DNA of 64,000 bases from a phage. The number at the start of each line of letters is the position of its first letter. Position 1 is the first letter of the stretch. Location of the stretch: the sequence record PZ445428.1; one strand, written 5' to 3'. The position numbers and the translations under genes were made by a program. A model generated the notes under the pieces. It ran no database searches. It was not told the DNA's origin and worked only from the letters and a program-made list of their open reading frames with translations. Shown here one piece after another: positions 10,038-64,000 of this stretch.

Positions 10038-10391
10038 ATGTTAATTATACTATTATTTGTAATATTCTTTCTAAAACATTTTATGGCCGATTATCCTCTC
10101 CAAACACCATATATGCTAAGAAAGACTCATAAAATAGGGTGGAAACTTCCATTATTAACCCATTCTCTAGTACATGCTGTATTAACATTTGCAATTCTAA
10201 TTCTATTCACATCACTAGGGATGGCTATAGCTTTAGCTATTATGGAATTAATTTTACACTTTATTATAGATTATTGGAAAGCACAACGCTGTAAGTACGC
10301 TATAAGCGATGCTAAGTTTTGGATAGCTTTAGGATTTGATCAGTTACTGCACTATCTGACATACGCCTTAATAATCTTGATTATAATCTAA
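10038..10391 (+). CDS. small hydrophobic membrane protein
   Basis: ORF track; multiple predicted TM stretches. Confidence 0.5.
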   Translation: MLIILLFVIFFLKHFMADYPLQTPYMLRKTHKIGWKLPLLTHSLVHAVLTFAILILFTSLGMAIALAIMELILHFIIDYWKAQRCKYAISDAKFWIALGFDQLLHYLTYALIILIII

Positions 10392-10395
10392 CTCA

Positions 10396-10421
10396 AATAG
10401 CCCTTCGGGGCTATTATATTT
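10396..10421 (+). terminator. hairpin terminator
   Basis: AATAGCCC-ttcg-GGGCTATT hairpin then AT-rich run. Confidence 0.5.
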
Positions 10422-11921: not shown

Positions 11922-12437
11922 ATGGCTAAGCAGAAAAACGCAAAAACTCAGGCAGCTCCAGCAGTTAAGACTTTCCCGCAGACCGAAGCTAATCGTAAGG
12001 CTCGTCTGGAACGTCATCTGCGTAAGCATCCTGAAGATGTTCAGGCTGCACAAGCTCTGGGTCGTCCGGCTCCTGTTCGTCAGAAACCGAAGGCTAAAAA
12101 CTCAACCCGAGCTGTAGCTAAACAGGTTGTGTTCATCAAAGGTGAAGGCCACAAGTCTGTACCTGTAACCCTGGGCTTCAACGGTGGAGCTGAAATGTTC
12201 TCCCGTAAGGACATGTCCCCGAAAGAGTACGAAAAAGCAGTTAATCAGAAACGTAAGCCAATGGCCGACGTATTCCGTGAAACTCGCGGCCAGTTCGGCT
12301 CTGTTAAACCGAATATCTTCGGTGTAGAGTATAGCCGTGACAACGTTCGCGCTCTGTGCTACGGCATTGGCATCAAGTTCACTGGTGCTTCTGATCGTAA
12401 ATCCGCTAAACCGGCTCGTAAGCGTAAAGCGAAGTAA
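11922..12437 (+). CDS. hypothetical basic protein (171 aa)
   Basis: ORF track; Lys/Arg-rich termini. Confidence 0.55.
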   Translation: MAKQKNAKTQAAPAVKTFPQTEANRKARLERHLRKHPEDVQAAQALGRPAPVRQKPKAKNSTRAVAKQVVFIKGEGHKSVPVTLGFNGGAEMFSRKDMSPKEYEKAVNQKRKPMADVFRETRGQFGSVKPNIFGVEYSRDNVRALCYGIGIKFTGASDRKSAKPARKRKAK

Positions 12438-19221: not shown

Positions 19222-19245
19222 TAGACATACGTAACATCTGAAGTA

Positions 19246-19330
19246 AGCCCGCGTTTCCTCCGAGAGCGCGGGCTTTTCTGTATTTAAGGCAAAAGAAAAG
19301 CCCCTTACCTTTCGGCAGGGGCTTTGTTTT
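19246..19330. terminator. bidirectional terminator region between convergent genes
   Basis: Two hairpins (AAGCCCGCG...CGCGGGCTT and GCCCCT...AGGGGC) flanked by T-runs on one side and A-runs on the other. Confidence 0.6.
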
Positions 19331-28536: not shown

Positions 28537-28896
28537 ATGCAATTATCATCTAAAGTTCAAGGTTTCTTCACACATGCAACAGCAGAATTTGCTATTAGCA
28601 AGGGTTGGGACTTTGAGCAAGAACTTTCTGAGTTCTATAAAGATATAGATATGAATACACCATACATGGCCTTAGCTTCTGGACAAGAGTTCTCAGAAGG
28701 TGATCTTTTCAAGGCAAGTCAAGGCGAGGTAACGCCTGGTTTTGCCGCTTTTTGGAGTGGCTTCACAATTAAAGAAGAAGCTCCAGATGATGATGTATTT
28801 ATGCAAAGCATGCACTCTGGGAGTTCTGATATGTTATTCGTTAAAGATGTACGACATATCCAAGAAGTGGTAAAAACGTATTTGCAAAATGCTTAA
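28537..28896 (+). CDS. hypothetical protein (119 aa)
   Basis: ORF track 28531..28896; start moved to ATG after TAAGGAA. Confidence 0.55.
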   Translation: MQLSSKVQGFFTHATAEFAISKGWDFEQELSEFYKDIDMNTPYMALASGQEFSEGDLFKASQGEVTPGFAAFWSGFTIKEEAPDDDVFMQSMHSGSSDMLFVKDVRHIQEVVKTYLQNA

Positions 28897-28910
28897 TTTC
28901 TTGTTATAAT
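28882..28910 (+). promoter_or_regulatory. early promoter cassette (-35 TTGCAA, -10 TATAAT) driving ORF-free leader plus tRNAs
   Basis: Hexamers with 17-bp spacer; -35 overlaps upstream stop. Confidence 0.55.
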
Positions 28911-29150
28911 ATTTATATAAATTGATGGGGAGAAATCCTCATCAAAGTTCACTAAGGTATTAGCTCGACCTAGGACTGGCTGCCACCAAGCACGATCCCT
29001 ACGACTCGGGAGAAGTTCTAGATTAGTCCACTAGATTCAGCGGCAACTGAATAGTGTATCGGGTTTGTGAAGAGCGGGTATCCAAGCCTGGCTAATGGCA
29101 CTGGGTATTACGCACACCGAGCTAATAGCCTTAGTAAACTTGAAGAATTT

Positions 29151-29225
29151 GGGCGAATAGTGTCAGCGGGAGCACACCAGACTTGCAATCTGGTAGGGAG
29201 GGTTCGAGTCCCTCTTTGTCCACCA
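29151..29225 (+). tRNA. tRNA-Ala (anticodon TGC)
   Basis: Acceptor GGGCGAA/TTTGTCC, anticodon stem CCAGA/TCTGG loop CTTGCAA, T-arm GAGGG-TTCGAGT-CCCTC, CCA. Confidence 0.65.
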
Positions 29226-29231
29226 AATTTT

Positions 29232-29307
29232 GGGGTCATAGGTTATTTGGTTAAACTTACTGCCTTGCAAGCAGTAGAACTCAGTTCAATTCTGAGTGAC
29301 TCCACCA
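29232..29307 (+). tRNA. tRNA with TGC anticodon (second Ala-type)
   Basis: Acceptor GGGGTCA/TGACTCC, anticodon stem ACTGC/GCAGT loop CTTGCAA, T-arm CTCAG-TTCAATT-CTGAG, CCA. Confidence 0.6.
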
Positions 29308-37835: not shown

Positions 37836-38581
37836 TGTCAGTATTAGTCGGTTTACATGGTGAGGCTGGTGCGGGGAAAGATACCGTAGCAAAATTGATG
37901 TTAGAATGGTGCAATGATACGTTCCCAACGTATTTAGCCCGCCAATACAGTTTTGCTAAACCCGTTTACGAACTTGCATCCGTAATCCTCGGGGTAACTC
38001 CAGAGTTTCTGGGAGAGCGCAGGGGAAAAGAGGTTAGTCAATGGTTTAATGTGACTCAATCTCAATTGGAGCGAGCTAGGGATGTGTGGTTTAAATACGG
38101 AATCGACAAATATGAAGACTTCTCGTACGTTTGGCCGATTTTTGAAGGAAAATACCTTGATCCTCAGCAGCTTATCAGTCAGGAGGAAGCACTATATAGT
38201 GTATTTATCTCCCCAAGAAAGATGCTACAGCTTGTAGGTACTGAGTTAGGAAGGCAGCTGGTGCATGAACGCATTTGGCTCATAATTCTGGAGCAATCCA
38301 TCGCTAAAGACGACCCAGACGTCGCCGTAGTAACAGATGTGAGATTCCCTAATGAAGGAGAGTTGATCAGAGAAACAAATCGTCTAGATATGGATTCTCT
38401 GTTAGTAAATGTCGTACCCGCGGAACGTGAATATACTATAAAGACAAACCATCCGTCAGAAAATGGTATTCCCGTTAAATACATTACTCACGAATTTGTT
38501 AATACATTCGAGGGTATGCACAACCTTAAACTAGAAGTAAATAACTTCTGTGACTTAGAGCTAGAACCACTAGTTGGATAA
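37835..38581 (+). CDS. dnk: deoxynucleoside monophosphate kinase
   Basis: N-terminal P-loop GLHGEAGAGKDT resembles phage dNMP kinases. Confidence 0.6.
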   Translation: MSVLVGLHGEAGAGKDTVAKLMLEWCNDTFPTYLARQYSFAKPVYELASVILGVTPEFLGERRGKEVSQWFNVTQSQLERARDVWFKYGIDKYEDFSYVWPIFEGKYLDPQQLISQEEALYSVFISPRKMLQLVGTELGRQLVHERIWLIILEQSIAKDDPDVAVVTDVRFPNEGELIRETNRLDMDSLLVNVVPAEREYTIKTNHPSENGIPVKYITHEFVNTFEGMHNLKLEVNNFCDLELEPLVG

Positions 38582-43398: not shown

Positions 43399-44021
43399 TG
43401 AAAGTTAAATTCTGGTCGGATTTGCACTTAGACCACCCAGGGACATTACGTTTCCGTCCATGGTTTAAGAACATGAAAGAGCACGATGAATATATTCTGG
43501 ATACCCTATCCAAGCACATCGGCAAGCGTACTAAGCTCGTCCTGCTAGGAGACATTGCAGTAGGTCGTGAAGGTCTGGCAAAATTAAAATCGGTTATCTA
43601 CAACGTGCCGAACCAACTTATCCTGGGCAACCATGATGCTGAACGTCAGGGTCTGCGTATTAAAGATCTTGTAGACGTTTACGATGATATTCAGGCTCTA
43701 GGTAAGCAGACTGGTGGTGGCAAGAAGTTCTGGCTGTCACACTGCCCATTGCACGAAGCTGAACTTCGGGGTAAGGTAAACATCCACGGACACGTTCACA
43801 CCAATTCTGTACGTGACCAACGTTATATCAACGTTTCATTTGAAATGAGCAAGACACCGATTACTCTAGAAGATATCGTGTCTGGTAAGTATCAGACGTG
43901 GAACAAGATTGTTGACCCAATTACTGGTGTTGTATCTGAAATTAGCCAAGATATGGTTGATATCCTTAGTAAGGGGTTTACTTTCGCTGATGGACACCCT
44001 GTGAGGACTAACAATGTTTGA
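43398..44021 (+). CDS. metallophosphoesterase
   Basis: DLHLDHP...LGDIAVG...GNHD...GHVH motifs. Confidence 0.6.
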   Translation: MKVKFWSDLHLDHPGTLRFRPWFKNMKEHDEYILDTLSKHIGKRTKLVLLGDIAVGREGLAKLKSVIYNVPNQLILGNHDAERQGLRIKDLVDVYDDIQALGKQTGGGKKFWLSHCPLHEAELRGKVNIHGHVHTNSVRDQRYINVSFEMSKTPITLEDIVSGKYQTWNKIVDPITGVVSEISQDMVDILSKGFTFADGHPVRTNNV

Positions 44022-48230: not shown

Positions 48231-48862
48231 TGTTTACACAACAATCTATCCAAGTAGTAGCAGACCATGAATTAGATACATGGGACTATAGTTTTAAAGA
48301 TCTAACTGCAACGGTTCAGTTCAAATCTATGAAGATGTCGTTTTTGCACACTGATCTGCAAGGTTGCAAGGATTTCGAAAGCAAACTCATGAGTGCTCGG
48401 GCTATCTTTGGCACGGCTCGCATCCCGGCTGATAACCTCATTAATGCACTGATCGATGCTGGATACAAACTCGTGAAGACTGAGGTGAATCGTCCTAGTA
48501 ATAACAGTATGCAGCTACCATCTTTAGGTTCTGGGTACATCACAGCTATGACAAATTCTGATAAAAGATTAATGTCGGATATGCACAATGTTAAACTTGG
48601 GGGTACTATTGAAGCCTCTACACCTTACCGAATTGGGGAAGCTGGTGGCACTGGAGCTACGGAGGTATTCAGAGAAGTAGCCCAGAAACAGTTCGAGGAC
48701 TCCGGAGCTTCTAGGAACCGTGTAATACCTTTGGATGCTAAAGCTTCTGGGAAGCAGATCTATACTGTGCATCTGAGTACACCATCTAGCAGAAATGAGA
48801 GCTTTGCTGATGCAGTTATGGAAGCTCTTGTAGATCTTACCAATGACAGTGGTTTTAAGTAA
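48230..48862 (+). CDS. hypothetical protein (210 aa)
   Basis: ORF track. Confidence 0.55.
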   Translation: MFTQQSIQVVADHELDTWDYSFKDLTATVQFKSMKMSFLHTDLQGCKDFESKLMSARAIFGTARIPADNLINALIDAGYKLVKTEVNRPSNNSMQLPSLGSGYITAMTNSDKRLMSDMHNVKLGGTIEASTPYRIGEAGGTGATEVFREVAQKQFEDSGASRNRVIPLDAKASGKQIYTVHLSTPSSRNESFADAVMEALVDLTNDSGFK

Positions 48863-49819: not shown

Positions 49820-49829
49820 ATATCTGCAT

Positions 49830-49858
49830 GTCTCGGTACACAATACCTGTACCGAGAC
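49830..49858. repeat. perfect 11-bp inverted repeat hairpin (GTCTCGGTACA...TGTACCGAGAC) at end of early gene array
   Basis: Read directly; no U-run follows. Confidence 0.6.
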
Positions 49859-50189
49859 AACAATACAAACTCTCGTTGACAGATAGATTAATGTATGTTA
49901 TCATAACTCTATGAGTTAATAAAATTAACCATTTAGAGTTGCCACACAGAAGGTGTGGTGGTTCAGGAATCTTAAATTACTGACTTGTAGCGTAGGATAC
50001 GGAGCGACAGGACAAGTCAACAGGTAATTTAATAAAGATTACTAGAAACATCACGAGACCTTCTGGCGGGGGCAAAGCTCTATATGAGAACCCTGGGGGA
50101 TCTTATACTTATATAAAAACTGATACTGTCAAATAGGTAAATTAACGTTCAAGATGATACACCGGTTGCCGCTCATCTGCTAGGATGGC

Positions 50190-50470
50190 TCAACACTTTC
50201 TTCTAGACTCCTAAGTTTCTAGGAAAACTCTCGATATCCAGGGCAGTTTTCATTATTCCTAGAAACTCTAGCAATAGGCGGTTAATACAGTAAACTGTCA
50301 TTTCAGTCGCTACCCTCCTTCAATGACAGGGCGGTTATAGGGAGGGCGGTTATTTCTAGGAGACATTTTTTGAAAACACATTTCTGGAAATTCTCATCGG
50401 ATTTGCACATTACATTTCTAGAAATTTATGGTCGGATTTGCACATTGATAGAAGACTCCAGAATTTCTAT
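50190..50470. repeat. cluster of TTTCTAGRAA-type palindromic motifs (about 6 copies)
   Basis: AGTTTCTAGGAAAACT, TTCCTAGAAACT, CATTTCTAGGAGA, TACATTTCTAGAAATTTATG, CCAGAATTTCTATG read in sequence. Confidence 0.5.
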
Positions 50471-50996
50471 GAACATTGAAAATAGCAGCATTATTTCGGG
50501 CCGAAGGCCCATGTTTGCCTGAGTTTTTAGAGCCACAGGAATTTTCACTTGTCAAGCAATTTTGCCCCCTTTAACTAATAAAATTTCACATAATCTCCAC
50601 CTATCTCAAATCTCCCCAAAACATCCCACATTATCCCCAAAAACGCAGCAAATAAGGCGTTTCACGCCATTTCCGCTGCCCCTTCCGTTTCTCCTCTTAT
50701 TTTCTCTCACTGCGTCAACTCTCACACAAACTCACACAATCACACACTCTCTCATCGAACTCACAAAAACTTCATCGGATTCGCACATCTTAACCCTAGA
50801 AAAATCATGTCGTATTTGCACATATGCGGCTGGATTTGTGCGCAGCACGAGTCTGCCCGAGTTTTTAGGAAAATTCATTGTCGGATTTGCACAATATAAA
50901 ATATTTTCGGGTCGGATTTGCACACTACCAAAAATTGTCGGATTCGCACATACACGCCCACGCGTAATTCATGGCGGCAAATGTCGGATTTGCACA
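50394..50996 (+). repeat. array of about 9 direct copies of 14-bp motif GTCGGATT(T/C)GCACA with irregular spacing
   Basis: Copies near 50397, 50431, 50775, 50809, 50830 (degenerate), 50880, 50911, 50937, 50983, all same orientation. Confidence 0.8.
50570..50760 (+). repeat. CA/CT-rich low-complexity tract (CTCACACAA repeats)
   Basis: Strand-biased pyrimidine+A composition; generates spurious Pro/Ser/Thr/His ORFs. Confidence 0.6.
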
Positions 50997-51039
50997 AAAG
51001 CGCAGGGCAAAATGAAAATGCCCTGCTGGCCGAAATGCG

Positions 51040-51175
51040 AATGATAATGAGAACGATTCGCATTTGAGAAGTTGAATGCGAATGAGAATGAGTCGCGTTT
51101 GGAAAGTGGAATGAGAATGGTTATTATTTACAGAGTTGAATGCGAATGAGTCGCATAATGAGAATGATTTGCATT
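51040..51175 (+). repeat. tandem GAATGCGAATGAGAATGA-family repeats
   Basis: GTTGAATGCGAATGAG twice plus several GAATGAGAATG units. Confidence 0.7.
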
Positions 51176-51204
51176 TAGGGAGGGAAGTGAGAAACACTGC
51201 TATT

Positions 51205-51305
51205 TAAGTTATCCACAGGTTTATCAACAGCACGATTTGACTTGACAAAACCCTAGCGATTTTGAGGCGTTTTCAACAGACTTATCAACAGGTTATCCTA
51301 CTGGA
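51205..51305. promoter_or_regulatory. cluster of DnaA-box-like 9-mers (one perfect TTATCCACA, plus TTATCAACA x2 and TTATCCTAC)
   Basis: Consensus TTATCCACA at about 51209-51217; related boxes at about 51221, 51282, 51293. Confidence 0.5.
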
Positions 51306-51345
51306 TAAATATACAGTATTCCTGCGTAGGGAATAACTCTAATAT

Positions 51346-51385
51346 AGCGTTTAAACGCTCTCAAACGCATTCTAAGCGGTTTAAT
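51346..51385 (+). repeat. copy A of ~30-bp repeat AAACGCTCT..AA.GC.ATTCTAAGCG.TTT
   Basis: Near-identical to copy at 54931-54968; inverted related copy at 54393-54430. Confidence 0.55.
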
Positions 51386-51691
51386 TTTGGAGGAGGTATT
51401 TTAATAAGGGGAAATTTGTTTGCAGGCAGAAAAGGCGGGGCCGATAGTTGCGCCCCGTTATTATTAGAGGAGTGGGCAATTATCCCGCTTTGCCATTTCG
51501 CGCCACTCCTCCCACTGTTTCACCTTGCGGCGATGTTCCAAAAACTTTTTAAACCACTGTTTCATAATGCCATCGCACCTAGAATGAGAATGATTATTAT
51601 TAACATTGCAAAGCCGTTCCCAAATCGTAAACGCTGGGAATGTTTCCCAGCGGTATTATTAGATTTATGGGATTGCGTTTTACGCCACCAG

Positions 51692-51877
51692 CTATTCACG
51701 GTAGACACGCCAGCCGTCATTAAACATTTCACGGCTGTAAAATTCATGATTGAATTTGTAACCGTCCTCAGTGGTGATCACTTCATATTTCATGAATAAA
51801 TATTCATGGATAGAAAAATAACGATGGGTTACTTTTTCACCTTCTAGCATAGCCTTTACAGCTTCATTTCTAGTCAT
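51692..51877 (-). CDS. hypothetical protein (61 aa)
   Basis: ORF track; start overlaps stop of upstream gene (ATGA); AAGGTGG RBS. Confidence 0.45.
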   Translation of the reverse strand: MTRNEAVKAMLEGEKVTHRYFSIHEYLFMKYEVITTEDGYKFNHEFYSREMFNDGWRVYRE

Positions 51878-52218
51878 TGCGCCACCTTTCGAAACGCTGT
51901 TTCAATACTTTCAGCGGTTGATTGAATATACGCGCCTTTCATAATCAGGCGCTCTGTACATACTTTGCGGAAAATATCAATAAATTCATCTTCATTTTCT
52001 GCAATCAAAGGCTCACCCATAACCTGAATATCGCATGAGTTAAAAGTAAGAAACTGAAAGGCAAGCTCGCGAGCGACAACGGCATTAATCTTATAATGTG
52101 CTTTTCCTTCATAGATGTTAACCACGCCTTTATAAACTGGTGAAAGCTGATTTAAATAGTTTGCTAACAATGCCGGACGGCAATTAGTTACAAAGCGGTT
52201 GCCTTCATAAATAACCAT
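51874..52218 (-). CDS. hypothetical protein (114 aa)
   Basis: ORF track 51874..52317 trimmed to ATG after AGGAG RBS. Confidence 0.5.
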   Translation of the reverse strand: MVIYEGNRFVTNCRPALLANYLNQLSPVYKGVVNIYEGKAHYKINAVVARELAFQFLTFNSCDIQVMGEPLIAENEDEFIDIFRKVCTERLIMKGAYIQSTAESIETAFRKVAQ

Positions 52219-52354
52219 TAGAAATATACTCCTGTTACCAGATTGTAGCACAAACGGACGGTAGCAGATATTGACAGCGCCACGGCACAAACGCCCCCAA
52301 ACGCCGCCACTATACAAACAACGGTTTCACAAGTTTTTTCAAAATCGCTTTTCA

Positions 52355-52567
52355 TTATAATACCCCACGAAAAGCAGCGTAAAAAGTAGCAAAGTGTTTA
52401 ACCGTTTCCGCTATCAAATTGCCGCGCTTATCAAATTTCTTTTCTGTAACACGGAAAGCGTTTTTGTTGCGCGGTACATATTCAATTTTGCAGTCGTCAC
52501 GCTCAAACGTGTTAACATCCACCAGCTTAAAACCTTTAGAACGGGCAAGGGATACATTTTTCAACAT
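52355..52567 (-). CDS. hypothetical protein (70 aa)
   Basis: ORF track; strong AGGAGG RBS. Confidence 0.5.
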   Translation of the reverse strand: MLKNVSLARSKGFKLVDVNTFERDDCKIEYVPRNKNAFRVTEKKFDKRGNLIAETVKHFATFYAAFRGVL

Positions 52568-52624
52568 TTTACTTCCTCCTAGTAAGGGAATTTTTTACTC
52601 CACCATTTCGGTGTAAAGGCATTA

Positions 52625-52657
52625 TAACAAAAAAGGCCGCCGATTAGGGCGACCTTT
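52625..52657 (-). terminator. hairpin terminator (minus strand)
   Basis: AAGGCCGC...GCGACCTT hairpin with A-run on plus strand to the left. Confidence 0.45.
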
Positions 52658-52670
52658 ACAAAACTTTACA

Positions 52671-53144
52671 TTACGCTATTTCTGTGACTTCAATACTGTA
52701 TAACTCTCTTAAAGCCTGAATGAGAACGTTGTACTCTTCCCATTCTTTCCCCTCGGGAATATATACAAGTTGCTTTAATCGGTTGGCGTATAATAACGCC
52801 TTGTTATCATTAATAGCTACGCCGCCGTGTTTAACAATCCATCGTGTAACAGTTCCAATCGGATCACCGCCATTAACATAAATACCTGATTGCGTCAACT
52901 GATATTTATAGAGGCTGCCTTCAATACTATTATCTTCAATGCCGCTTTCGAAATCCTCATCATTTTCGAAACGAGAAGCATTATCATATGCTAGTTCTTG
53001 GGCGAAAGCGTCCAGATCACAGCCAGCAGGAATAAAATGTTCCTCCGTCCAGTTCTCTCCGCAATAGCCCGTATTGCAATCTGATATAACGATCATATCG
53101 TGGTTAGCTTTCCCGCTAACAGGTAAACCGTATTTCTCTGACAT
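52671..53144 (-). CDS. hypothetical protein (157 aa)
   Basis: ORF track; AGGAGA RBS; CG-rich codon usage unlike the early region. Confidence 0.6.
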   Translation of the reverse strand: MSEKYGLPVSGKANHDMIVISDCNTGYCGENWTEEHFIPAGCDLDAFAQELAYDNASRFENDEDFESGIEDNSIEGSLYKYQLTQSGIYVNGGDPIGTVTRWIVKHGGVAINDNKALLYANRLKQLVYIPEGKEWEEYNVLIQALRELYSIEVTEIA

Positions 53145-53160
53145 TAATTAGTCTCCTAAC

Positions 53161-53193
53161 TAAAAGGGAAAAGGCGGGGCAAACTACCCCGCC
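53161..53193 (-). terminator. rho-independent terminator (minus strand)
   Basis: GGCGGGG-caaacta-CCCCGCC hairpin with A-run on plus strand to the left. Confidence 0.55.
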
Positions 53194-53202
53194 CGATTAT
53201 TA

Positions 53203-54210
53203 TTACTCGCTTTCGGCGTTTTGGGTAAAGGTGGAAATGTCAATGCCTTTTACCATTTCGTCGATCATTTCAGCGATGTTAAAAGATTGTACCATTTCTA
53301 ACATTGCCGCTTCCATTGCCGCGCCTGCTACTGCTTTAGCTTTTGCGTTAGTCGGGGCGTACTGGTCAACCGCTACGCTTAACAGGTTAGCGATCACTAC
53401 GCGGCCAATCGGCGTATCAATATAACCTTTAATCATAAACGGTGCTTTTTTCGCCGCTACTTTTGTGATTTGAGTCAAAGCAATTTTACCCGCTTCCAGT
53501 TTAGCAGCGTTTACAACGGCGGATTTATTAGCGGCGATGATAGAAGTTACTTTAGACATAGTGTTATTTCCTTTATTTTCAGTAGTTTGCGCAATTGCGC
53601 TTGAAGTTTGAGTGTTAGAGCTTACAGCTTGTTTAGCTACGTTGTCAACTGGTTTTAATGTAAATCCAGATTTTGCGACATTCATCACATTATCCTCATC
53701 CTCAAAATAACTTTGAGGAAACAACATGTTACCTGTCGAACGTTCAAAACACAATACGCCGGTAGTAGAAATTGAATCATCTTTCGCGCGGCTAATATGT
53801 GTACCACACTCGCCCCAAATGCTAGACAATAAATCTTCTACACTGCTAGAGTTAATATTAGATACCCGAACGCCGAAAACTTGATCTTTATCCTGTACAT
53901 TATAACCACGGGCAAGATAACCGCGATCGTCATGACCTACAATGATAAAATCAATATTGTTTTCACGGCGATTATTAAAGATGAAATAATCACGGTTATA
54001 TAATACTAAAATCCGCGTAGGATCAAGTAATTGTGTGAAATCATCAATTGAATAATCCACCTCACAATCATCTAAAATCATGCTGTGGATTTGTTCAACC
54101 TTTGCCGCCGTATGGTGAACGCTTGCCGCGCTACTACCATCTAGCAGATTGCGCAAACTACCTTTTAAAATAGTTGCGTTTTCTGGTACTGCAATTCTGG
54201 TCAAAGACAT
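53203..54210 (-). CDS. hypothetical protein (335 aa)
   Basis: ORF track; GAGGGAG RBS; Ala/Lys-rich C-terminal half. Confidence 0.6.
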   Translation of the reverse strand: MSLTRIAVPENATILKGSLRNLLDGSSAASVHHTAAKVEQIHSMILDDCEVDYSIDDFTQLLDPTRILVLYNRDYFIFNNRRENNIDFIIVGHDDRGYLARGYNVQDKDQVFGVRVSNINSSSVEDLLSSIWGECGTHISRAKDDSISTTGVLCFERSTGNMLFPQSYFEDEDNVMNVAKSGFTLKPVDNVAKQAVSSNTQTSSAIAQTTENKGNNTMSKVTSIIAANKSAVVNAAKLEAGKIALTQITKVAAKKAPFMIKGYIDTPIGRVVIANLLSVAVDQYAPTNAKAKAVAGAAMEAAMLEMVQSFNIAEMIDEMVKGIDISTFTQNAESE

Positions 54211-54392
54211 TTCTTTGTCTCCCTCGTTAATCGGTGAGTGAATGATATAGATATTTGTTCACTATGGGCAACGTTTATTTTACCTTTTTATTTTTCTTGC
54301 TCAAATCGAAAAAGTATGCTAACCGCGCGTTTTCTATTTCTAGCTCTCTGTAAGCGTACACAAGGCTTTATTATAATAAGGGTAACAGTGAG

Positions 54393-54430
54393 AAAACCGC
54401 TTAGAATCGATTCTAGACCGCTTAAAATTG
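54393..54430 (-). repeat. inverted copy of TTCTAAGCGG-family repeat
   Basis: AAACCGCTTAGAATCGATTCTAGACCGCTTAAAA. Confidence 0.45.
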
Positions 54431-54930
54431 ATTGCGGTTGTTAGTGCTACCTATTTACCCTGTATATTTATACAGTAGGATAACCTGTTTATAAGTCTGT
54501 AGATAAGTCCTCTTATCTCTGCCTATTGCGTCAAGTTATTTTGTGCTGTGTATAACTTTGGGGATAAGTTAAATGATAGTGGTTCTCACTTAGCCCGATA
54601 GTTTCTCATAGTTATTATTTCTCATTAATTTATATGTATATTATATATTATGGAATAGTTAGTTGGCTAATAGGATTTTCCGTGATTAATAGTCTGCTAA
54701 TGATAACGCATGTTACAATCCACCAGCGCGATTACCATCCTAGCGACTGTTAGCGTGCTAATGATCCATAACGTTACCAATTCTTAAATGATACTCATTC
54801 TCATTGTAGGAAAGTTACGAAATGCTGTTATAAAGCAACATGTCAATAGCAAAGCGGGTAAGGCATAAAAATAAATTTTGTCAATACCCGAAAGTTATTA
54901 AATGTGGTGTGAATAAGTTATCAACAGGGT

Positions 54931-54968
54931 CTAAAACGCTCTGTAAGCGATTCTAAGCGCTTTTGATG
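54931..54968 (+). repeat. copy B of ~30-bp repeat, preceded by DnaA-box-like TTATCAACA
   Basis: CTAAAACGCTCTGTAAGCGATTCTAAGCGCTTTTGATG; TTATCAACA at about 54918. Confidence 0.55.
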
Positions 54969-55377
54969 AAAAGCTATCCCATCATAAGGGGACTATACCG
55001 AACGCCTCACCACGAGGATTTTAGATTTTGTCAAGTACCCTAGAGCAGATATAAATGAAAAAATTACTTGCTTAAATGGTTGTTTTCGTGTTATTCGCGC
55101 GCCCGTTTCATTAAATTTAGTGCCTTGCTGGACGTTTGCGGAGACTGGTTTTCTTTACGTTTCTTTACAAAAATAAGGTTGCGCCATTTTCGGGAATAAC
55201 CTATTATTTATCTCGTAGGACGGCAAGACGGAAACGAAAGGCCAGAATACACGGTAAGGATAACAGCGATTGACAGTCTGTATGACCTTTCAAAACCTTA
55301 CCACGCTCTTTAAAAATCAGGTACAAGATACATATTAAAGCCTATCGGCTTACTCCACTAAACAAGGATAAGACGAT

Positions 55378-55569
55378 ATGAGAGAAAAACTGTATGATGC
55401 GACTATTTCAAATGAAATCAGGACGCTAGATAAAATTACAGTAGAACAAGCCGAAAATGTGATTAAATTTGTTGAAAAATATGATGGTGAATGTTTCTTT
55501 ATAAGAGACGATATCTACGCATGTTGTTACAAATCACATAATTTTTCAGTTACTCATAAAGGTTTATAA
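55378..55569 (+). CDS. hypothetical protein (63 aa)
   Basis: ORF track. Confidence 0.45.
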   Translation: MREKLYDATISNEIRTLDKITVEQAENVIKFVEKYDGECFFIRDDIYACCYKSHNFSVTHKGL

Positions 55570-55570
55570 T

Positions 55571-55780
55571 ATGAAACAATCTCTTTTGCTAACGGGTAAA
55601 CCTGCTAGCCCATTAAACAGCAGAACAAAAAAGCTCTTGACAGTAGCGCAACAATCCGTAAAATACAGATTCAAGCAATACAAGAAAGGCAAGCAACAAG
55701 GTTTAGAAATGGTGTGGCGTAATATAATGATTGATTTATATAACTCACATCAAATCGAAAAAAGTTTAAAAAACGCTTGA
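55571..55780 (+). CDS. hypothetical basic protein (69 aa)
   Basis: ORF track. Confidence 0.45.
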   Translation: MKQSLLLTGKPASPLNSRTKKLLTVAQQSVKYRFKQYKKGKQQGLEMVWRNIMIDLYNSHQIEKSLKNA

Positions 55781-55962
55781 CGCTCCAGCCGATAGGCTCT
55801 AATATGTATCTCGTACCACGGCGAATGACAAAACGCCCTGCTCTTTAAAAATTTGGATAACGGTAATGTTTAGGCTAACTCCTAGCGGATTATAATCTAA
55901 TACCGATTTAAAACATCAAATCGGTATTGTGGAATAATCCCCAATAAACCGGAGTATTAAAA

Positions 55963-56214
55963 ATGCAAAACGTTATTACCGCGCCGAAAGTTGGTCAATC
56001 TGTATTCATTCCTTTTGTTACTAAAACGGATGAATTAACCGGAAAAGCCGAACGTATTAAAGGTGCGGCGCTTGATCCTTTCGATAAAATCGAAGCGGTC
56101 TATGCGGAAACGGAACGCAGTAACCACGGCAAGCCGATTTATAACGTCCGTGTTAAATCAGGCGACGTTGTAAAGATCATTCAAAAAGATGATAAATGGC
56201 AAGCTATCGCATAA
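55963..56214 (+). CDS. hypothetical protein (83 aa)
   Basis: ORF track; GGAGTATTAAAA before ATG. Confidence 0.5.
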   Translation: MQNVITAPKVGQSVFIPFVTKTDELTGKAERIKGAALDPFDKIEAVYAETERSNHGKPIYNVRVKSGDVVKIIQKDDKWQAIA

Positions 56215-56470
56215 TAAGCGGTAACGATTTTAAATTAAAATATCATGCTTAGAGCGGCAATTATGAGCTAACTCGAAGTAATAGCGAGAAATTACCATAC
56301 CAGTGAAAGTGATAAAAGCTATCGGTTATAACCTTTAGCGCCTTAATTGGCTTTAAATTGAAAACTATAATCTAGAGTTTTCGTTATATATTTCGTGACT
56401 ATATACCGGAATATATAGCGGCTAATTCTAGCCATAATCCCTTAATTAAAAATTGAATGGAGTATTAAAT

Positions 56471-56887
56471 ATGTCTAACGTTAAAACCGAAAAAACCGCA
56501 AAATTCTCTTGGAACGAAGAAAACACCGAAAAAGCGGTATCAATGTATAATACTTTCGTAAAAGATAGCGGCATTGAATTTGCTAACACTGACGGCTTAA
56601 AAGAAATTGCCGCCGCCGTTGGCGCTGCAAGTCCTGTTTCTGTACGTTCTAAATTGACAAGCGCGAAAGCGTATCAGAAAAGCGATAAACCGCGTAAAGT
56701 TGGCGGCGGGTCTAGTGTCCGTAAAGCTCACTATGTACGCGTCATTGCTAAACACGCCATTGATTCAGGTATCGTAAAAGATGCTGACGATCTGGCATCG
56801 CTGGAAAGTGCAAAATTGGAAACGCTGGACGCGGTAGCGCAATTGCTCGGCGTAGCGGAGGAAGTAAAACAGGCCGCAGGTGAATAA
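56471..56887 (+). CDS. hypothetical protein (138 aa); possible A2-like pre-early protein
   Basis: ORF track 56453..56887 trimmed to ATG after AATGGAGT; size and position relative to A1-like gene fit T5 A2 (inference only). Confidence 0.4.
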   Translation: MSNVKTEKTAKFSWNEENTEKAVSMYNTFVKDSGIEFANTDGLKEIAAAVGAASPVSVRSKLTSAKAYQKSDKPRKVGGGSSVRKAHYVRVIAKHAIDSGIVKDADDLASLESAKLETLDAVAQLLGVAEEVKQAAGE

Positions 56888-56936
56888 ATTTTAATTAGCG
56901 GGGAATATTCCCCGCTATCCCTGAAAGGAGAATAAA

Positions 56937-57164
56937 TTGATTTTCTATCCTAGCGAGTCGCTAATATTAGGTTTATTCCTGATAGCGGTTATATTTATCT
57001 TTAATTACGGTAAATATATAATTGCAATAATCGGTATTAATTCAGTATATGCCGCCGATAAATTTAAACGATCGGCAAATGTGCAAAAGTATTTAGCCAT
57101 TATCTTTTTAACGCTGGCTATAGCTTGCGGTTTTAGTTCTAGTCTAGTGCCTATATTAGAATAA
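56937..57164 (+). CDS. small membrane protein (75 aa), TTG start
   Basis: ORF track; AAAGGAGA RBS. Confidence 0.35.
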   Translation: MIFYPSESLILGLFLIAVIFIFNYGKYIIAIIGINSVYAADKFKRSANVQKYLAIIFLTLAIACGFSSSLVPILE

Positions 57165-57270
57165 TATTGCAAATTATAACGCCTTTAAAAGTCCCCACTT
57201 CGGGTAAGGCGTTATATTTGGCAATATTGCCAGTATTAATAATTATCCCTTTAATGGAGTTGAATTAGTT

Positions 57271-58935
57271 ATGAATATTTCCGCTGAAAAACAAGCTCAA
57301 ATCGTTAAACTTGCTGCTGATTTTAATTTCTACGGTAAACGTTTACGCGCTACTAAGCTGGAAGTGTGCGACGATATTTCAAAAGCTGTTTACGATACAA
57401 CGAAACATTCAACCGCAATCTGTGACTGGCTGGAAGCAAACAAGCCAGCAAAACCAAAAGCGGCAAAAGCTGAAAAGGCGATTAAAAATGATGATCGCCC
57501 CGAAGCGGCAGGGATTGTTTCTAGTACCGTTGAACAATGGGAAGTTAAATCCGGTCGCCGTTTTATTCTAACGTCGATTCAAAATAACACTTTCCCGCAT
57601 AAAAACTTTTTAGCAAGTCTGGAAAAATTCGCTGATTATATCGGCGCTGAATTGCTGATTAGTAAATTCATTTACAATAAAAACGGCTTCCAGAATGGTG
57701 AAGGTAGCGACGGCATTAAATACGATCCCGCATTTAATAAATATATTTGCGAGAAAAACGTATTTTTGAATAATCGCCGCTTTGCTTTCATGGCTGAAAT
57801 TAACGTATTACCAACGGCAGATTATCCGCTTTCAGGATTCGCAGAAACCGCCACGGCTTTAAATATTGAAGGTTTGGCAATCGGTCACGCTAAAATCACC
57901 GCTGAAAGTGTGCCAGCGTTAAAAGGTGAAATTGTGCGCCGTATGTATTCAACCGGAACGGCTACGCTTAAAAACTACATCCAGCAGAAAGCAGGTCAAA
58001 AAGCTGAAGCGTTACATAATTTCGGCGCTTTGCTGGTGGAGTTCGACGACGACGGCGAATTTTTTGTTCGCCAGCTTGAAACAATGGATGAAAGCGGAAT
58101 GTTCTATGATTTGAATATTTGCGCCACTCCTAGCGGTTGCAAAGAAATTACAGGACACGTTTTAGGCTTGCAATATGGCGATATTCATGCCGAAAAATTA
58201 GATGATGAATGTGCCGTTGCGTCATGGGCTAGTGAAAATTCATTGCTGGATATTCTTAAACCGAAATATCAGTTTATTCATGATGTGCATGATTTTACAT
58301 CCCGCAATCACCATAACCGCGCAAGTGGTGTATTCCTTGCTAAACAGTACGCCGCAGGACGTGACAAAGTTCTGGATGATCTAATTGATACGGGTCGCGT
58401 ATTGGAATCAATGGAGCGTGATTTTAGTCAGACAATCATTGTTGAATCTAACCATGATTTAGCGCTTTCACGCTGGCTTGATGATCGCAACGCTAACATT
58501 AAGGACGATCCCGCAAACGCCGAACTATATCACCGCCTGAATGCAGCCATTTACGCCGCAATCGGTGAACGTGATGAAACGTTTAACGTGTTAGATTACG
58601 CGCTTAGAAACGTTGCTGGCTGCGAATTTAACGCCATATTCCTGACTACTGACCAGTCGTTTAAAATCGCTGGCATTGAATGCGGCGTACATGGTCACAA
58701 CGGCATTAACGGCAGTCGTGGCAATCCTAAGCAGTTTAAGAAACTTGGACGCCTTAACACTGGTCACACTCACACGGCTAGTATTTACGGCGGCGTTTAT
58801 ACCGCTGGCGTTGCTGGTAATCTTGATATGGGCTACAACGTCGGCGCTAGTAGCTGGACGCAAACGCATTTAATTACCTATGCAAACGGTCAAAGAACAT
58901 TGATTGACTTTAAGAATGGTAAATTCTTTGCATAA
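57271..58935 (+). CDS. A1: A1-like pre-early protein (metallophosphoesterase-type nuclease domain)
   Basis: 554-aa ORF with GDIHAE and HD..H metallophosphatase-like motifs; size close to T5 A1 and adjacent to dmp-like gene. Confidence 0.6.
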   Translation: MNISAEKQAQIVKLAADFNFYGKRLRATKLEVCDDISKAVYDTTKHSTAICDWLEANKPAKPKAAKAEKAIKNDDRPEAAGIVSSTVEQWEVKSGRRFILTSIQNNTFPHKNFLASLEKFADYIGAELLISKFIYNKNGFQNGEGSDGIKYDPAFNKYICEKNVFLNNRRFAFMAEINVLPTADYPLSGFAETATALNIEGLAIGHAKITAESVPALKGEIVRRMYSTGTATLKNYIQQKAGQKAEALHNFGALLVEFDDDGEFFVRQLETMDESGMFYDLNICATPSGCKEITGHVLGLQYGDIHAEKLDDECAVASWASENSLLDILKPKYQFIHDVHDFTSRNHHNRASGVFLAKQYAAGRDKVLDDLIDTGRVLESMERDFSQTIIVESNHDLALSRWLDDRNANIKDDPANAELYHRLNAAIYAAIGERDETFNVLDYALRNVAGCEFNAIFLTTDQSFKIAGIECGVHGHNGINGSRGNPKQFKKLGRLNTGHTHTASIYGGVYTAGVAGNLDMGYNVGASSWTQTHLITYANGQRTLIDFKNGKFFA

Positions 58936-58987
58936 TTAAATTTAATCGGCGGTTGAAATATACCGCCATTAATAAAAGGATAATTAA

Positions 58988-59260
58988 ATGTCTATTAAAA
59001 TTAATATTCCATCTAGTAAAAACGTGTCAGATGTTTACGATATTAGCCAGATAAGGCAGGGCACTGTATATCAAAATATTAAAGATGGTGAATGTTATAT
59101 TTACCAGAATGAATTAAACGGTCATTCATATATTATTGAATCACACGATTTTTATTCTTTTGAAACTGACCACGAGGCAAGGGAATTTATTTCTGATAAT
59201 GATTTGCCTGACGCATGGAAAGAAACAAATCTAAACTTTGTTGTAAGTTTAGAAAAATAA
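58988..59260 (+). CDS. hypothetical protein (90 aa)
   Basis: ORF track. Confidence 0.45.
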   Translation: MSIKINIPSSKNVSDVYDISQIRQGTVYQNIKDGECYIYQNELNGHSYIIESHDFYSFETDHEAREFISDNDLPDAWKETNLNFVVSLEK

Positions 59261-59296
59261 ATTAATCCCGTAATTAAATAATCTGGAGTTATAAAC

Positions 59297-59689
59297 ATGA
59301 AACAATCAAACATTCCTTTTGATCGCGCCGCTTCTTCAATCGTTCTGGTTTATTCTAATGGTGAACGCTATCACGTTGAATCAGGTCATGTTATCGACGA
59401 TTTGCTAAACTATAACGAAGCGTTACAGGTTACAACGTTTGCATATATGACAGGGAAAGCGGCAAGCCATATTAAAGCAAAAGGCGTTTATGTCGATACA
59501 ATCAAACAAGAAACGATTATTATCGATGCTGTTAAATCCGGTCTAGCGTTTGCAGTTGTCGCGCCGTGTCTCGGTTGCCTTGATGATCAAATGGTATCGG
59601 CAAAGGTCTACACTTGCGCGGGGATTCGTTCTAGCGTATCCGGTGAAGATGTTAGCTTTATTGCTGATGCTCTCGCTTTTGGTCTGTAA
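59297..59689 (+). CDS. hypothetical protein (130 aa)
   Basis: ORF track. Confidence 0.5.
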   Translation: MKQSNIPFDRAASSIVLVYSNGERYHVESGHVIDDLLNYNEALQVTTFAYMTGKAASHIKAKGVYVDTIKQETIIIDAVKSGLAFAVVAPCLGCLDDQMVSAKVYTCAGIRSSVSGEDVSFIADALAFGL

Positions 59690-59778
59690 TAGTTAATTGA
59701 ACATTGCCAGCTAATCTAATATAATTAGCTGGCAAGATTGAATTAATAACCCAGTCCCTTAAATGGAGAAAGTAACAA

Positions 59779-60513
59779 ATGAATCAAGTTAACATGAATA
59801 TTACCCGCACTTTCCCGCATATTTCCCGCGTTATGATTTGGGATTTAGACGGAACGGTTATAAATAGTTTTCATCGTGTAGCGCCTTGCTTTGATGATAA
59901 CGGGAATTTAGATTTAGTTAAGTATTCCCGCGAAGCCTGCAAACATGATTTAATTATGCAGGATTCTTTATTGCCATTGGTTGAATATATGCGCCAATGT
60001 ATGAATGATGCTAATACATTAAACATCATTTGCACCGCTCGCTTAATGTCTAAAAGCGATTATTTCTACTTACGTAAACAAGGTCTAAGAGGGCGCGGAA
60101 ATAGTAACATTCGCGTGTTTTCCCGAGATACATTACATAAATACTTTGAAGCGGAAAAGGTTAGCGATATATATCACAGCAAAGACGCTGTATATAAATC
60201 TTATTACTTTGAACTGTTTAAACAGCTATATCCGAACGCTGATTTTACGATGATTGATGATCATAAAGGCGTATTATCAGCAGCAGCAAACGCAGGATTT
60301 AAAACACTGGACGCTCAAGCCGTTAACGATATCCTATCAATCGGGGTAACATTGATCGGTGAAACCTTTATTGATGAATCGCTTGATGATGATAACGATT
60401 ATCAATTCCTAGCCGAACGTTTAAAAATGTGTTGGGAAGGTATGACCGAAGAAGAACGCAGCGAATATAGTACCACGCCGCAACAGTTCATTGATAAATT
60501 AAAAGTTGCCTAA
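59779..60513 (+). CDS. dmp: 5'-deoxyribonucleotidase-like HAD-family hydrolase
   Basis: 244-aa ORF; HAD motif I IWDLDGTVI near N-terminus; size matches T5 dmp. Confidence 0.6.
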   Translation: MNQVNMNITRTFPHISRVMIWDLDGTVINSFHRVAPCFDDNGNLDLVKYSREACKHDLIMQDSLLPLVEYMRQCMNDANTLNIICTARLMSKSDYFYLRKQGLRGRGNSNIRVFSRDTLHKYFEAEKVSDIYHSKDAVYKSYYFELFKQLYPNADFTMIDDHKGVLSAAANAGFKTLDAQAVNDILSIGVTLIGETFIDESLDDDNDYQFLAERLKMCWEGMTEEERSEYSTTPQQFIDKLKVA

Positions 60514-60677
60514 CAATTAAAAATAAAATAGTCACGGTGTGTAATGATAACATGCCGTGACTATTAGCTTGCTAAGTACCGGGGCGGTAATGAGACTCAT
60601 TCTCATCTGGGGAACCACTGGGCCCACCTCCATGTGTAATCTTATGAAATTTGGCAAAAAGGTAATTAGCGCTAAAC

Positions 60678-60923
60678 TTAGGAGGAACGCCTATCTACTG
60701 GCTTATCTCCCGATTCTGACATACGAAATCTCCTCCGAGAACTTCTTGAGCCATCGCTCCACTCCCGCTCGAACTCCTCCCGTTTCTCCGCAAACCTCCT
60801 CTCTCTTTCCGAAAGCTCCCGCATCAGCCCCGAGACATATTCACGATGCCTGTTGATTGCCGCAGCCGTCCCGAAAATACCTGCAAGCACCCCGATAATA
60901 AATATGATTACTAAAGTTGACAT
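60678..60923 (-). CDS. small membrane protein (81 aa)
   Basis: ORF track 60678..60959 trimmed to internal ATG (MSTLVIIFIIG...). Confidence 0.35.
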   Translation of the reverse strand: MSTLVIIFIIGVLAGIFGTAAAINRHREYVSGLMRELSERERRFAEKREEFEREWSDGSRSSRRRFRMSESGDKPVDRRSS

Positions 60924-61031
60924 TATCCCACACACCCCGCCATTGCCGCAATAAACCAAACTACGAAAATTAGAAATAGTACAGTCCCGAATCCGAAACT
61001 ATTTATCCAACTCTCGTACACTTCCCCTCTT

Positions 61032-61310
61032 TTATTTCTTCTGTTGTCGTTTGACATCTCTTTGCTTCTCCTGTAAGCCTGGTATTTGGAAGATCCTAGA
61101 TATTGCACGAACCATTACGACTGTCCCGATAAGATCCATTACTTCATCGAAGCCGGATTCTTCTAGTAAGAAGGATGTTCCCATAACATCTTCCATTGTA
61201 TCTTGTATGACGTCTTGAATAATTTCGTTTATTGCATCATGTATTGCCTTTGTCTTGGGATCTAACTCTAGAGGTAGAGGTTCCTGAAAAGGCTTATCAT
61301 TTTCTTGCAT
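61032..61310 (-). CDS. hypothetical acidic protein (92 aa)
   Basis: ORF track. Confidence 0.4.
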   Translation of the reverse strand: MQENDKPFQEPLPLELDPKTKAIHDAINEIIQDVIQDTMEDVMGTSFLLEESGFDEVMDLIGTVVMVRAISRIFQIPGLQEKQRDVKRQQKK

Positions 61311-63518: not shown

Positions 63519-64000
63519 ATGGCAAATGATGTTTTAGTACCTGATCTCATGTCTCCTGAAGGCATGGACGTAATTGAGGCTTATCTACAATGTGGTAGTG
63601 ATGTACGAATGGCCTCACGTACTCTTGGAATGTCGGAAATTGCATTCCGCGATATTATGAATCGTGGTGAGGTAAAGAATTATCTCAACGACATATTTAT
63701 GGAGAGTGGCTTCCGCAATCGTGACAAGTTATTTGGTGTACTCGATGAAGTCATCAAGCGCAAGTTGGAAGAACTCGAAGAAACTGGTATGGGATCTGAC
63801 CAGGATATCATGGATATTCTGTGGAAAGCCCATAAAATGAAGATGGAAGAAATGAAGATGATGGTAGAGCTGGAGAAAGCGAGAGCTGCTACACGTGCTC
63901 CTACTAATCAGACTAACATTCAGAACAACATTATTGCTGGCTCCGGTGATCAGAACTACATGGACTTAATTACTTCGCTAGCAACTGGAGGTAGAAAGTA
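63519..64000 (+). CDS. HTH DNA-binding protein, possibly terminase small subunit (3' end beyond window)
   Basis: AAGGAGG RBS; helix-turn-helix-like [16 protein letters not shown]; no stop before window end. Confidence 0.35.

What the first reader, a model, noticed from the sequence alone, without database searches (positions are those of the whole stretch)
50394..50996. Array of about nine 14-bp direct repeats (GTCGGATTTGCACA) in a 1.6-kb non-coding region
Same-orientation copies at irregular spacing (21-46 bp within sub-clusters, with a 330-bp CA-rich gap) strongly suggest an iterated protein-binding site (iteron-like). The array lies between the early gene array and the pre-early module, where T5-type phages have the injection-stop / first-step-transfer boundary. 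Nearby are a second motif family (TTTCTAGRAA palindromes, 50190-50470) and a CA-repeat tract. Not CRISPR-like: repeats are too short and there are no regular spacers or cas genes.
Basis: partly seen in the sequence, partly recalled or inferred. Interest (0 to 1): 0.7.

Follow-up and report, generated by a model that had tools for sequence, protein, structure and literature searches.

The report
Known T5 repeat array at injection-stop border
The 14-base repeats are real, but they are the "direct repeat D" array already annotated in phage T5 at the border where DNA injection pauses; their function has never been shown, and they most likely bind a phage protein next to a conserved DNA nick.

Summary
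Eight same-strand copies of GTCGGATTTGCACA (2 mismatches or fewer) lie at 50396-50996, against 0.36 expected by chance in the whole window.

The window is Escherichia phage TrudiGerster, a T5 relative. The array is the orthologue of T5 "direct repeat D" (DRD). DRD is annotated in GenBank AY587007 and described by Davison as part of Repeat Region 3, the injection-stop region. It is therefore not new, although no function has ever been assigned.

- The inner end of the terminal repeat (window about 50530) falls inside the 329-bp gap in the array.
- The last copy sits 3 nt from the T5 major nick 1 site (R/GCGCRGG, window 51000). This arrangement holds in E. coli, Klebsiella, Pantoea, Proteus, Vibrio and Aeromonas phages.
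- The motif is conserved while the spacers are not, and it drifts between subfamilies while the neighbouring DnaA boxes stay invariant.
- All 15 genome-wide copies lie on the nicked strand.
- No such arrays occur in bacterial genomes.

Best guess (confidence about 0.35): the copies are binding sites for a phage protein, most plausibly the essential pre-early DNA-binding protein A2, which controls restart of DNA transfer. The rivals are terminase recognition, a stop signal read by a pre-existing host or virion protein, the nicking system, and a replication origin.

The parts
50396..50409 (+). DRD copy ATCGGATTTGCACA, outside the terminal repeat; homologue of T5 DRD copy 8
50431..50444 (+). DRD copy GTCGGATTTGCACA, outside the terminal repeat; homologue of T5 DRD copy 7. 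With the previous copy it forms a 35-bp unit that includes a TTTCTAGAAA palindrome.
50774..50787 (+). DRD copy ATCGGATTCGCACA, the first copy inside the terminal repeat (T5 copy 6)
50809..50822 (+). DRD copy GTCGTATTTGCACA (T5 copy 5)
50880..50893 (+). DRD copy GTCGGATTTGCACA (T5 copy 4)
50911..50924 (+). DRD copy GTCGGATTTGCACA (T5 copy 3)
50937..50950 (+). DRD copy GTCGGATTCGCACA (T5 copy 2)
50983..50996 (+). DRD copy 1, GTCGGATTTGCACA, 3 nt upstream of the nick-1 site. This is the copy conserved in every Demerecviridae lineage examined.
50964..51006 (+). Bipartite major nick-1 site: GTAAT (50964-50968), about 30 nt that contain DRD1, then R/GCGCAGG (51000-51006). The nick is expected between 50999 and 51000 on the + strand.
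50524..50545 (.). Inner boundary of the long terminal repeat, which is also the physical right end of virion DNA. The conserved motif is TTTTTAG|AGCCACAGGAATTTT, and the repeat starts at about 50530 and runs rightwards.
50560..50770 (+). C/A-rich, G-poor tract (C+A 66%, G 6%) that fills most of the gap between the two DRD sub-clusters, just inside the terminal repeat
48574..48587 (+). Outlying DRD copy GTCGGATATGCACA inside the ORF019-like early gene; homologue of T5 DRD copy 10
43415..43428 (+). Outlying DRD-like copy GTCGGATTTGCACT, on the same strand
50039..50473 (.). Cluster of seven TTTCTAGRAA palindromes interleaved with the outer DRD copies
51034..51206 (.). GAATGMGAATGAGAATGA repeats and palindromes (T5 DRC/DRE, palindromes E-I), which resemble Fur boxes. 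The estimated first-step-transfer shear point of T5 (9618) maps here.
51209..51302 (+). DnaA boxes and variants (TTATCCACA at 51209; TTATCAACA at 51222 and 51283), corresponding to T5 IRD'-spacer-IRC'
56471..56887 (+). Gene A2, the pre-early DNA-binding protein essential for second-step transfer and the candidate DRD binder

Best explanation
Identity (essentially certain). The array is the orthologue, in Epseptimavirus TrudiGerster, of T5 'direct repeat D' (DRD). It lies in the non-coding Repeat Region 3 that spans the inner end of the 10-kb terminal repeat, at the border between first-step-transfer (FST) and second-step-transfer (SST) DNA. Mechanism (inferred). Each 14-bp copy is an asymmetric recognition site for a phage-encoded, sequence-specific DNA-binding protein. 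The most likely candidate is the pre-early protein A2. The array begins 3 nt from major nick 1, where DNA transfer pauses, and its density falls off towards the SST DNA. A2, made from the FST DNA and partnered with the A1 phosphoesterase, would load onto these co-oriented sites at or just behind the paused nick. There it would release or restart transfer, either as a binding ratchet or by bringing A1 to the nick. Because the array lies in the terminal repeat, the same sites sit 0.24-0.47 kb from the right genome end, where A2 could also pair or protect the ends. What is shown: identity, conservation, geometry and the A2 fold prediction. What is inferred: protein binding, the identity of the binder and the role in restart.
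Confidence: 0.35

Rival explanations
1. Packaging signal. The copies are recognition sites for the small terminase subunit (like lambda cosB R sites or the T7 SRL/SRR arrays). They would mark the inner terminal-repeat boundary where the terminase cuts and starts packaging.
For: The terminal-repeat end (window about 50530) falls in the gap between the two sub-clusters, 86 bp from the outer pair and 244 bp from the inner group. It lies at a motif, TTTTTAG|AGCCACARGAATTTT, that is conserved even in Klebsiella and Pantoea phages. A paralogous 52-nt DRD-palindrome-DRD module flanks the boundary on both sides (family D4). Co-orientation would suit directional packaging. By inference from the left end being injected first, the right end should be packaged first.
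Against: In Vibrio phage Pontus all eight copies lie inside the repeat and none flank the boundary. The invariant feature across lineages is proximity to nick 1, not to the repeat end; the distance from nick to repeat end varies from 350 to 472 nt. There are no DRD copies at the other cut site, the left terminus.
Confidence: 0.2
2. The array is part of the stop signal itself. It would be read by something present before any phage gene is expressed, either a host DNA-binding protein (for example weak DnaA binding, since ATTTGCACA is one mismatch from TTWTNCACA) or a virion or channel component. This would hold the DNA at 8%.
For: Its position is immediately distal to the FST end and the nick. 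The 3' half resembles a DnaA box, and a few variants (TTTTGCACA) meet the strict consensus. Real DnaA boxes sit 200-300 bp away.
Against: The frequent variant ATTCGCACA breaks the invariant T4 of the DnaA box. The 5' half GTCGG is equally conserved and DnaA does not explain it. The motif drifts between subfamilies although DnaA boxes do not. No such arrays occur in host genomes. Binding on the cytoplasmic side would favour entry rather than block it (inference).
Confidence: 0.13
3. The copies belong to the nicking system. They would be binding sites, or low-frequency 'minor nick' sites, for the late nicking endonuclease or a partner protein, tuning nicking at site 1.
For: DRD1 lies inside the bipartite nick-1 site (GTAAY, about 30 nt, R/GCGCRGG) in all lineages. 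All DRD copies lie on the nicked strand. The TrudiGerster nick-4 homologue has a DRD-like GTCGTTTTTGCACA in the same register, and T5 copies 11 and 12 are 365 bp from nick 4. The spacers of all four nick sites share a TTT in register with the DRD core.
Against: Nick sites 2 and 3, and T5 nick 4, have no DRD yet are major nicks. The array copies lack GCGCRGG. Interruption-deficient T5 mutants have been isolated (title in the reference list seen), so nicks are dispensable, whereas the array is strongly conserved.
Confidence: 0.12
4. Iteron-type replication origin: DnaA boxes plus directly repeated initiator sites plus an asymmetric A/T- or C/A-rich tract.
For: The overall layout (DnaA boxes, 8-10 direct repeats, a skewed tract) recalls plasmid oriV regions.
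Confidence: 0.05

Closest known systems
Bacteriophage T5 'direct repeat D' (DRD) in Repeat Region 3 / injection-stop (iss) region (Heusterspreute et al. 1987; Wang et al. 2005, GenBank AY587007; Davison 2015 and bioRxiv 10.1101/866236)
   Same: The 14-mer, strand, order and spacing are the same. So is the position across the inner end of the terminal repeat, next to major nick 1 and the DnaA-box inverted repeats.
   Different: There are eight copies in the array instead of nine, because one T5 copy lies in a segment absent here. One spacing differs by 10 bp (35/71 against 25/81).
Plasmid and phage iterons (P1 RepA, pSC101, RK2, lambda O sites)
   Same: Multiple co-oriented short repeats in a non-coding region that also carries DnaA boxes. 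The motif is conserved while the spacers are free to vary.
   Different: The repeat is 14 bp rather than 17-22 bp, and the spacing is irregular. There is no adjacent initiator gene and no evidence of origin function.
Terminase recognition repeats near genome ends (lambda cosB R1-R3; T7 SRL/SRR heptamer arrays beside the terminal repeat). This comparison rests on my own knowledge.
   Same: Arrays of short direct repeats lie next to a terminal-repeat boundary or terminase cut site.
   Different: Here the family-wide invariant is adjacency to a nick, not to the cut site. Nothing comparable lies at the other terminus.
oriT regions of conjugative plasmids (a nic site plus accessory-protein binding repeats). 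This comparison rests on my own knowledge.
   Same: A strand-specific nick has an adjacent array of oriented protein-binding repeats at a place where DNA transfer is controlled.
   Different: No relaxase is present. The nick is made in phage DNA at several genome sites, most of them without repeats.
DnaA-box clusters (oriC, datA)
   Same: The 3' half ATTTGCACA is one mismatch from TTWTNCACA, and real DnaA boxes lie nearby.
   Different: The conserved GTCGG half, the tolerated T4-to-C variant and the drift between lineages do not fit DnaA.

Membership tests
T5 direct repeat D (DRD) array | Consensus TGTGCAAATCCGAC (equivalent to GTCGGATTTGCACA on the other strand) | tested here: met
   All T5 annotated DRD copies match the window motif with 1 mismatch or fewer.
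T5 direct repeat D (DRD) array | Location in the non-coding region across the inner end of the long terminal repeat, between pre-early and early genes | tested here: met
   The terminal-repeat end maps to window about 50530, inside the array.
T5 direct repeat D (DRD) array | Same order, orientation and spacing as in T5, with the first copy next to major nick 1 | tested here: met
Iteron-type replication origin | Regularly spaced direct repeats (about 22 bp, two helical turns) of 17-22 bp | tested here: not met
   The motif is 14 bp and the spacing is 26-343 bp with no helical phasing.
Iteron-type replication origin | Adjacent gene for a Rep-type initiator | tested here: not met
Iteron-type replication origin | Origin activity | not testable with these tools
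   The literature places T5 origins near the genome centre.
CRISPR array | Repeats of 24-40 bp with regular unique spacers, plus cas genes | tested here: not met
   The repeats are 14 bp with irregular spacing, and the homologous spacers are conserved among close relatives. The window is a lytic phage genome.
DnaA-box cluster | Match to TTWTNCACA with invariant T2, T4 and CACA | tested here: not met
   The consensus copy has A at position 1. A common variant has C at position 4. The extra conserved GTCGG half is unexplained, and the motif drifts between lineages while true boxes do not.
Terminase small-subunit recognition site (cosB/pac-like) | Repeats bound by the small terminase subunit next to the cut site | not testable with these tools
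   The geometry is compatible in T5-like phages but not in Pontus.

The most novel reading that the evidence does not exclude
The DRD array together with nick 1 is the family-wide cis-acting core of two-step DNA transfer in Demerecviridae. The nick provides the pause. The co-oriented DRD copies are the landing pad on which the Myb/GcrA-like protein A2 (with A1) assembles to restart transfer. The lineage-specific motif variants co-evolve with A2.
Probability: 0.25. Interest if true: 0.75.

Novelty: already known. Interest (0 to 1): 0.35.

Why it matters
How T5 stops DNA entry at 8% and restarts it with A1 and A2 has been unresolved for about 60 years. The repeat array itself is old news. This analysis narrows the conserved cis elements to a compact module that can be mutated: a DRD copy 3 nt from nick 1, amplified into an oriented array across the terminal-repeat end. 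It also names a concrete candidate binder, A2. This turns a vague 'region rich in repeats' into direct binding and mutagenesis experiments with the T5 engineering tools that now exist. It also matters for phage engineering and for understanding which DNA is exposed to host defences during the pause.

Tried and rejected
- CRISPR-like array: rejected on repeat length and spacing.
- Coding region or ncRNA over the array: the small ORFs are not conserved, because relatives carry frame-breaking indels. There is no Rfam hit, and no convincing promoter or terminator lies inside the array.
- Nick determinant: nick sites 2 and 3 have no DRD.
- Host regulatory array: a two-copy pattern scan of 185,579 genomes found only one contig, which is T5-like phage DNA.
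- Rep-like neighbour: the ORF018 homologue model gave no fold match.
- Replication-origin skew: the cumulative GC skew only follows the switch in transcription direction.
- Sequence search of A2 against the PDB: nothing significant.
- Davison 2015 (PMC4743489) and the supplements of the 2020 preprint are not held, so I could not check whether DRD1-nick adjacency or the Vibrio and Aeromonas variants were already noted there.
- Covariation test of the putative RNA at 49911-50125: failed, because the relatives are too divergent to align.

Full report
**1. Observation**

GTCGGATTTGCACA with up to 2 mismatches occurs 12 times in the window. All 12 are on the + strand, against 0.36 expected from dinucleotide-preserving shuffles.

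Eight copies form the array, starting at 50396, 50431, 50774, 50809, 50880, 50911, 50937 and 50983. Start-to-start spacing is 35, 343, 35, 71, 31, 26 and 46. The 329-bp gap is strongly C/A-rich; positions 50560-50770 are 66% C+A and 6% G.

The outer DRD pair and the first inner pair are paralogous 52-nt DRD-palindrome-DRD modules (family D4).

The region 49820-51460 lies between convergent genes. It has no Rfam match and only non-conserved small ORFs.

**2. What the window is**

The region is 100% identical to Escherichia phage TrudiGerster (Bas27, MZ501108; Epseptimavirus, Demerecviridae). In all, 527 phage records match it.

Window position equals record position minus 50661. The window wraps around to the record start (the small terminase subunit gene) at 63519.

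To the left of the array lie early genes. To the right lie the pre-early genes, including A2, A1 and dmp.

**3. The array is already known**

GenBank AY587007 (T5) annotates 'direct repeat D' copies as follows:
- Copies 1-6 at 9672-9895, inside the left terminal repeat, which ends at 10139.
- Copies 7-9 at 10225-10409, outside the repeat.
- Copy 10 at 12073, in ORF019.
- 'Major single-stranded nick 1, 7.9%' at 9661-9668.

The reverse complement of these copies is exactly the window motif. The spacing pattern is orthologous.

[quoted passage not shown] He reports it as conserved in 25 T5-like phages and overrunning the terminal repeat by 270 bp. He places the estimated FST shear point at 9618. 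He assigns the stop signal mainly to the DnaA-box inverted repeats IRD'-spacer-IRC' and to DRE, and gives DRD no function.

Papers from 2026 still call the mechanism unknown.

*(a) Position of the terminal-repeat boundary.* Contigs that end at the right terminal repeat place the inner boundary 243-245 nt before the first in-repeat copy. In the window this is about 50530, at TTTTTAG|AGCCACAGGAATTTT. That motif is also conserved in Klebsiella and Pantoea phages. Two copies are therefore outside the repeat and six are inside.

*(b) Strand bias.* In more than 30 T5-like loci every copy is on one strand. In the complete TrudiGerster genome all 15 hits with 2 mismatches or fewer are on that strand.

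*(c) Motif against spacer conservation.* Against the Klebsiella phage vB_Kpn9-P3 and the related IMG/VR locus L112 (10-11 copies each; phage A1 protein 74% identical) and Pantoea phage AAS21 (8 copies; A1 65% identical), motif positions are 80-88% identical. The rest of the region is 39-42% identical. Information content collapses at the motif edges.

*(d) Reach across the family.* The element is family-wide:
- Vibrio phages Pontus and pVp-1 (A1 about 32% identical) carry 8-9 co-oriented TMGRATTTGCACCTA copies.
- Aeromonas phage AhSzq-1 carries RTCGAATWWSTACTT copies.
- Proteus phage 2 and Vibrio phage D386 keep essentially one copy.

*(e) Adjacency to the nick.* In most lineages examined the nick-proximal copy lies 3 nt before GCGCAGG. 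The exceptions are D386, where a single copy lies 12 nt before GCGCGGG, and pVp-1, where no GCGCRGG was found. The published T5 nick consensus is R/GCGCRGG. The strand that carries the DRD motif is therefore the nicked strand.

*(f) Drift against invariance.* The canonical DnaA box TTATCCACA nearby is unchanged in every lineage where one was found (all but the Klebsiella phage), whereas DRD drifts.

*(g) Absence from host genomes.* A two-copy DRD pattern is absent from 185,579 bacterial and archaeal genomes, apart from one 2.6-kb contig that is itself T5-like phage DNA.

**5. Mechanism**

The conservation pattern indicates a sequence-specific, asymmetric protein-binding site. The drift between lineages next to invariant DnaA boxes, and the absence from host genomes, favour a phage-encoded binder.

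The location links the array to two-step transfer. It starts at nick 1, about 50 bp from the estimated FST end, and T5 ejection pauses at nicks in vitro.

The only phage proteins needed for restart are A1 and A2. A2 is a DNA-binding dimer that associates with A1.

I therefore propose that DRD copies are A2 sites that nucleate an A1-A2 complex at the paused nick to restart transfer. I rate this at about 0.35, because no binding data exist.

**6. Rival explanations**

- Terminase recognition of the terminal-repeat boundary is supported by the boundary lying in the gap. It is weakened by Pontus, by the variable distance from nick to repeat end, and by the lack of copies at the left terminus.
- A stop signal read by a pre-existing host or virion factor, such as DnaA, is weakened by the tolerated T4-to-C variant, the conserved GTCGG half and the motif drift.
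- A role in the nicking system is suggested by strand coupling, by DRD1 lying inside the nick site, and by a DRD-like copy at the TrudiGerster nick-4 homologue. However, nick sites 2 and 3 lack DRD.
- An iteron-type origin is unsupported: spacing is irregular, there is no Rep-like neighbour, and the mapped origins lie elsewhere.

**7. Verdict**

The feature is the already annotated T5 DRD array, so its novelty is 'already known'. Its function is still open, and the analysis here makes it directly testable.

Noticed in passing
window 50964-51006, 37982-38023, 19231-19272; TrudiGerster record 29239-29279: The major nick sites look bipartite: GTAAY, then 28-32 nt, then R/GCGCRGG. In the 114 kb scanned (record positions 50001-50661 not covered) this pattern picks exactly four sites, all on one strand. 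Their positions match T5 nicks 1, 2, 3 and 4. Five other GCGCRGG occurrences lack the upstream element. This may be the 'additional recognition sequence' that the literature suspected.
   Followed up: partly
window 51043-61286 (especially 51034-51206): Palindromes that resemble Fur boxes (5 mismatches or fewer to GATAATGATAATCATTATC) occur 13 times in the window. All lie within, or at most about 0.7 kb beyond, the terminal repeat (first-step-transfer DNA), against about 3 expected per window. Similar boxes lie in the same place in T5, Pantoea, Proteus and Aeromonas phages, and the T5 shear point maps onto them. A full-text search of the held papers for 'Fur box' with phage T5 listed nothing on this.
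   Followed up: partly
window 49876-50125 (+): A near-consensus sigma-70 promoter (TTGACA, 17 nt, TGtTATCAT; 11 of 12 positions) is conserved in relatives and fires towards the repeat array. The 215 nt downstream fold far better than shuffles (z -5.7). Relatives keep the promoter, the 5' end and a GGGGG 3' end but have very different internal sequences, and no shared structure could be derived.
   Followed up: partly
window 50498-50545: The terminal-repeat inner boundary lies at the conserved motif TTTTTAG|AGCCACAGGAATTTT. Just before it is a GGGCC-GAA-GGCCC hairpin, which reads as a UUCG-type loop on the other strand. After it comes about 240 bp in which the strand whose 5' end would lie at the right genome terminus (if the deposited ends are the physical ends) is G-poor, a telomere-like asymmetry.
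   Followed up: partly
TrudiGerster record 28883-29279 (outside the window); T5 78651-79048: There is a second mini-cluster of DRD-like copies near nick 4, inside the SbcC-like nuclease gene on the opposite coding strand. In TrudiGerster one copy (GTCGTTTTTGCACA) lies 3 nt before GCGCGGG, as DRD1 does at nick 1. T5 lacks that copy but has DRD copies 11 and 12 about 365 bp away.
   Followed up: partly
window 50277-50353: There are three direct copies of GG(G)CGGTTAT (50277, 50329, 50344). The motif is also conserved in the Klebsiella and Pantoea phage regions.
   Followed up: no
L126 4954-5141; L129 7147-7308; L128 3507-3778; L136 5817-6010: Distant relatives carry other dense tandem arrays in the same non-coding region. 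Proteus phage 2 has nine copies of CCATTCTATTATTC. Vibrio phage Pontus and the Aeromonas phage have 8-bp TCTAGCCA/TCTAGACT tandem arrays of 13-21 units. Vibrio phage D386 has 16-bp repeats.
   Followed up: no
window 63519-64000: The window wraps around the deposited record. Record position 1, the start of the small terminase subunit gene, is at window 63519, so the source is a circularly permuted assembly with a single collapsed terminal repeat.
   Followed up: yes
window 60586-60604: A DRC-like palindrome resembling a Fur box (GGTAATGAGACTCATTCTC) lies about 20 bp from the position that corresponds to the left genome terminus of the related phage vB_SenS-3.
   Followed up: no
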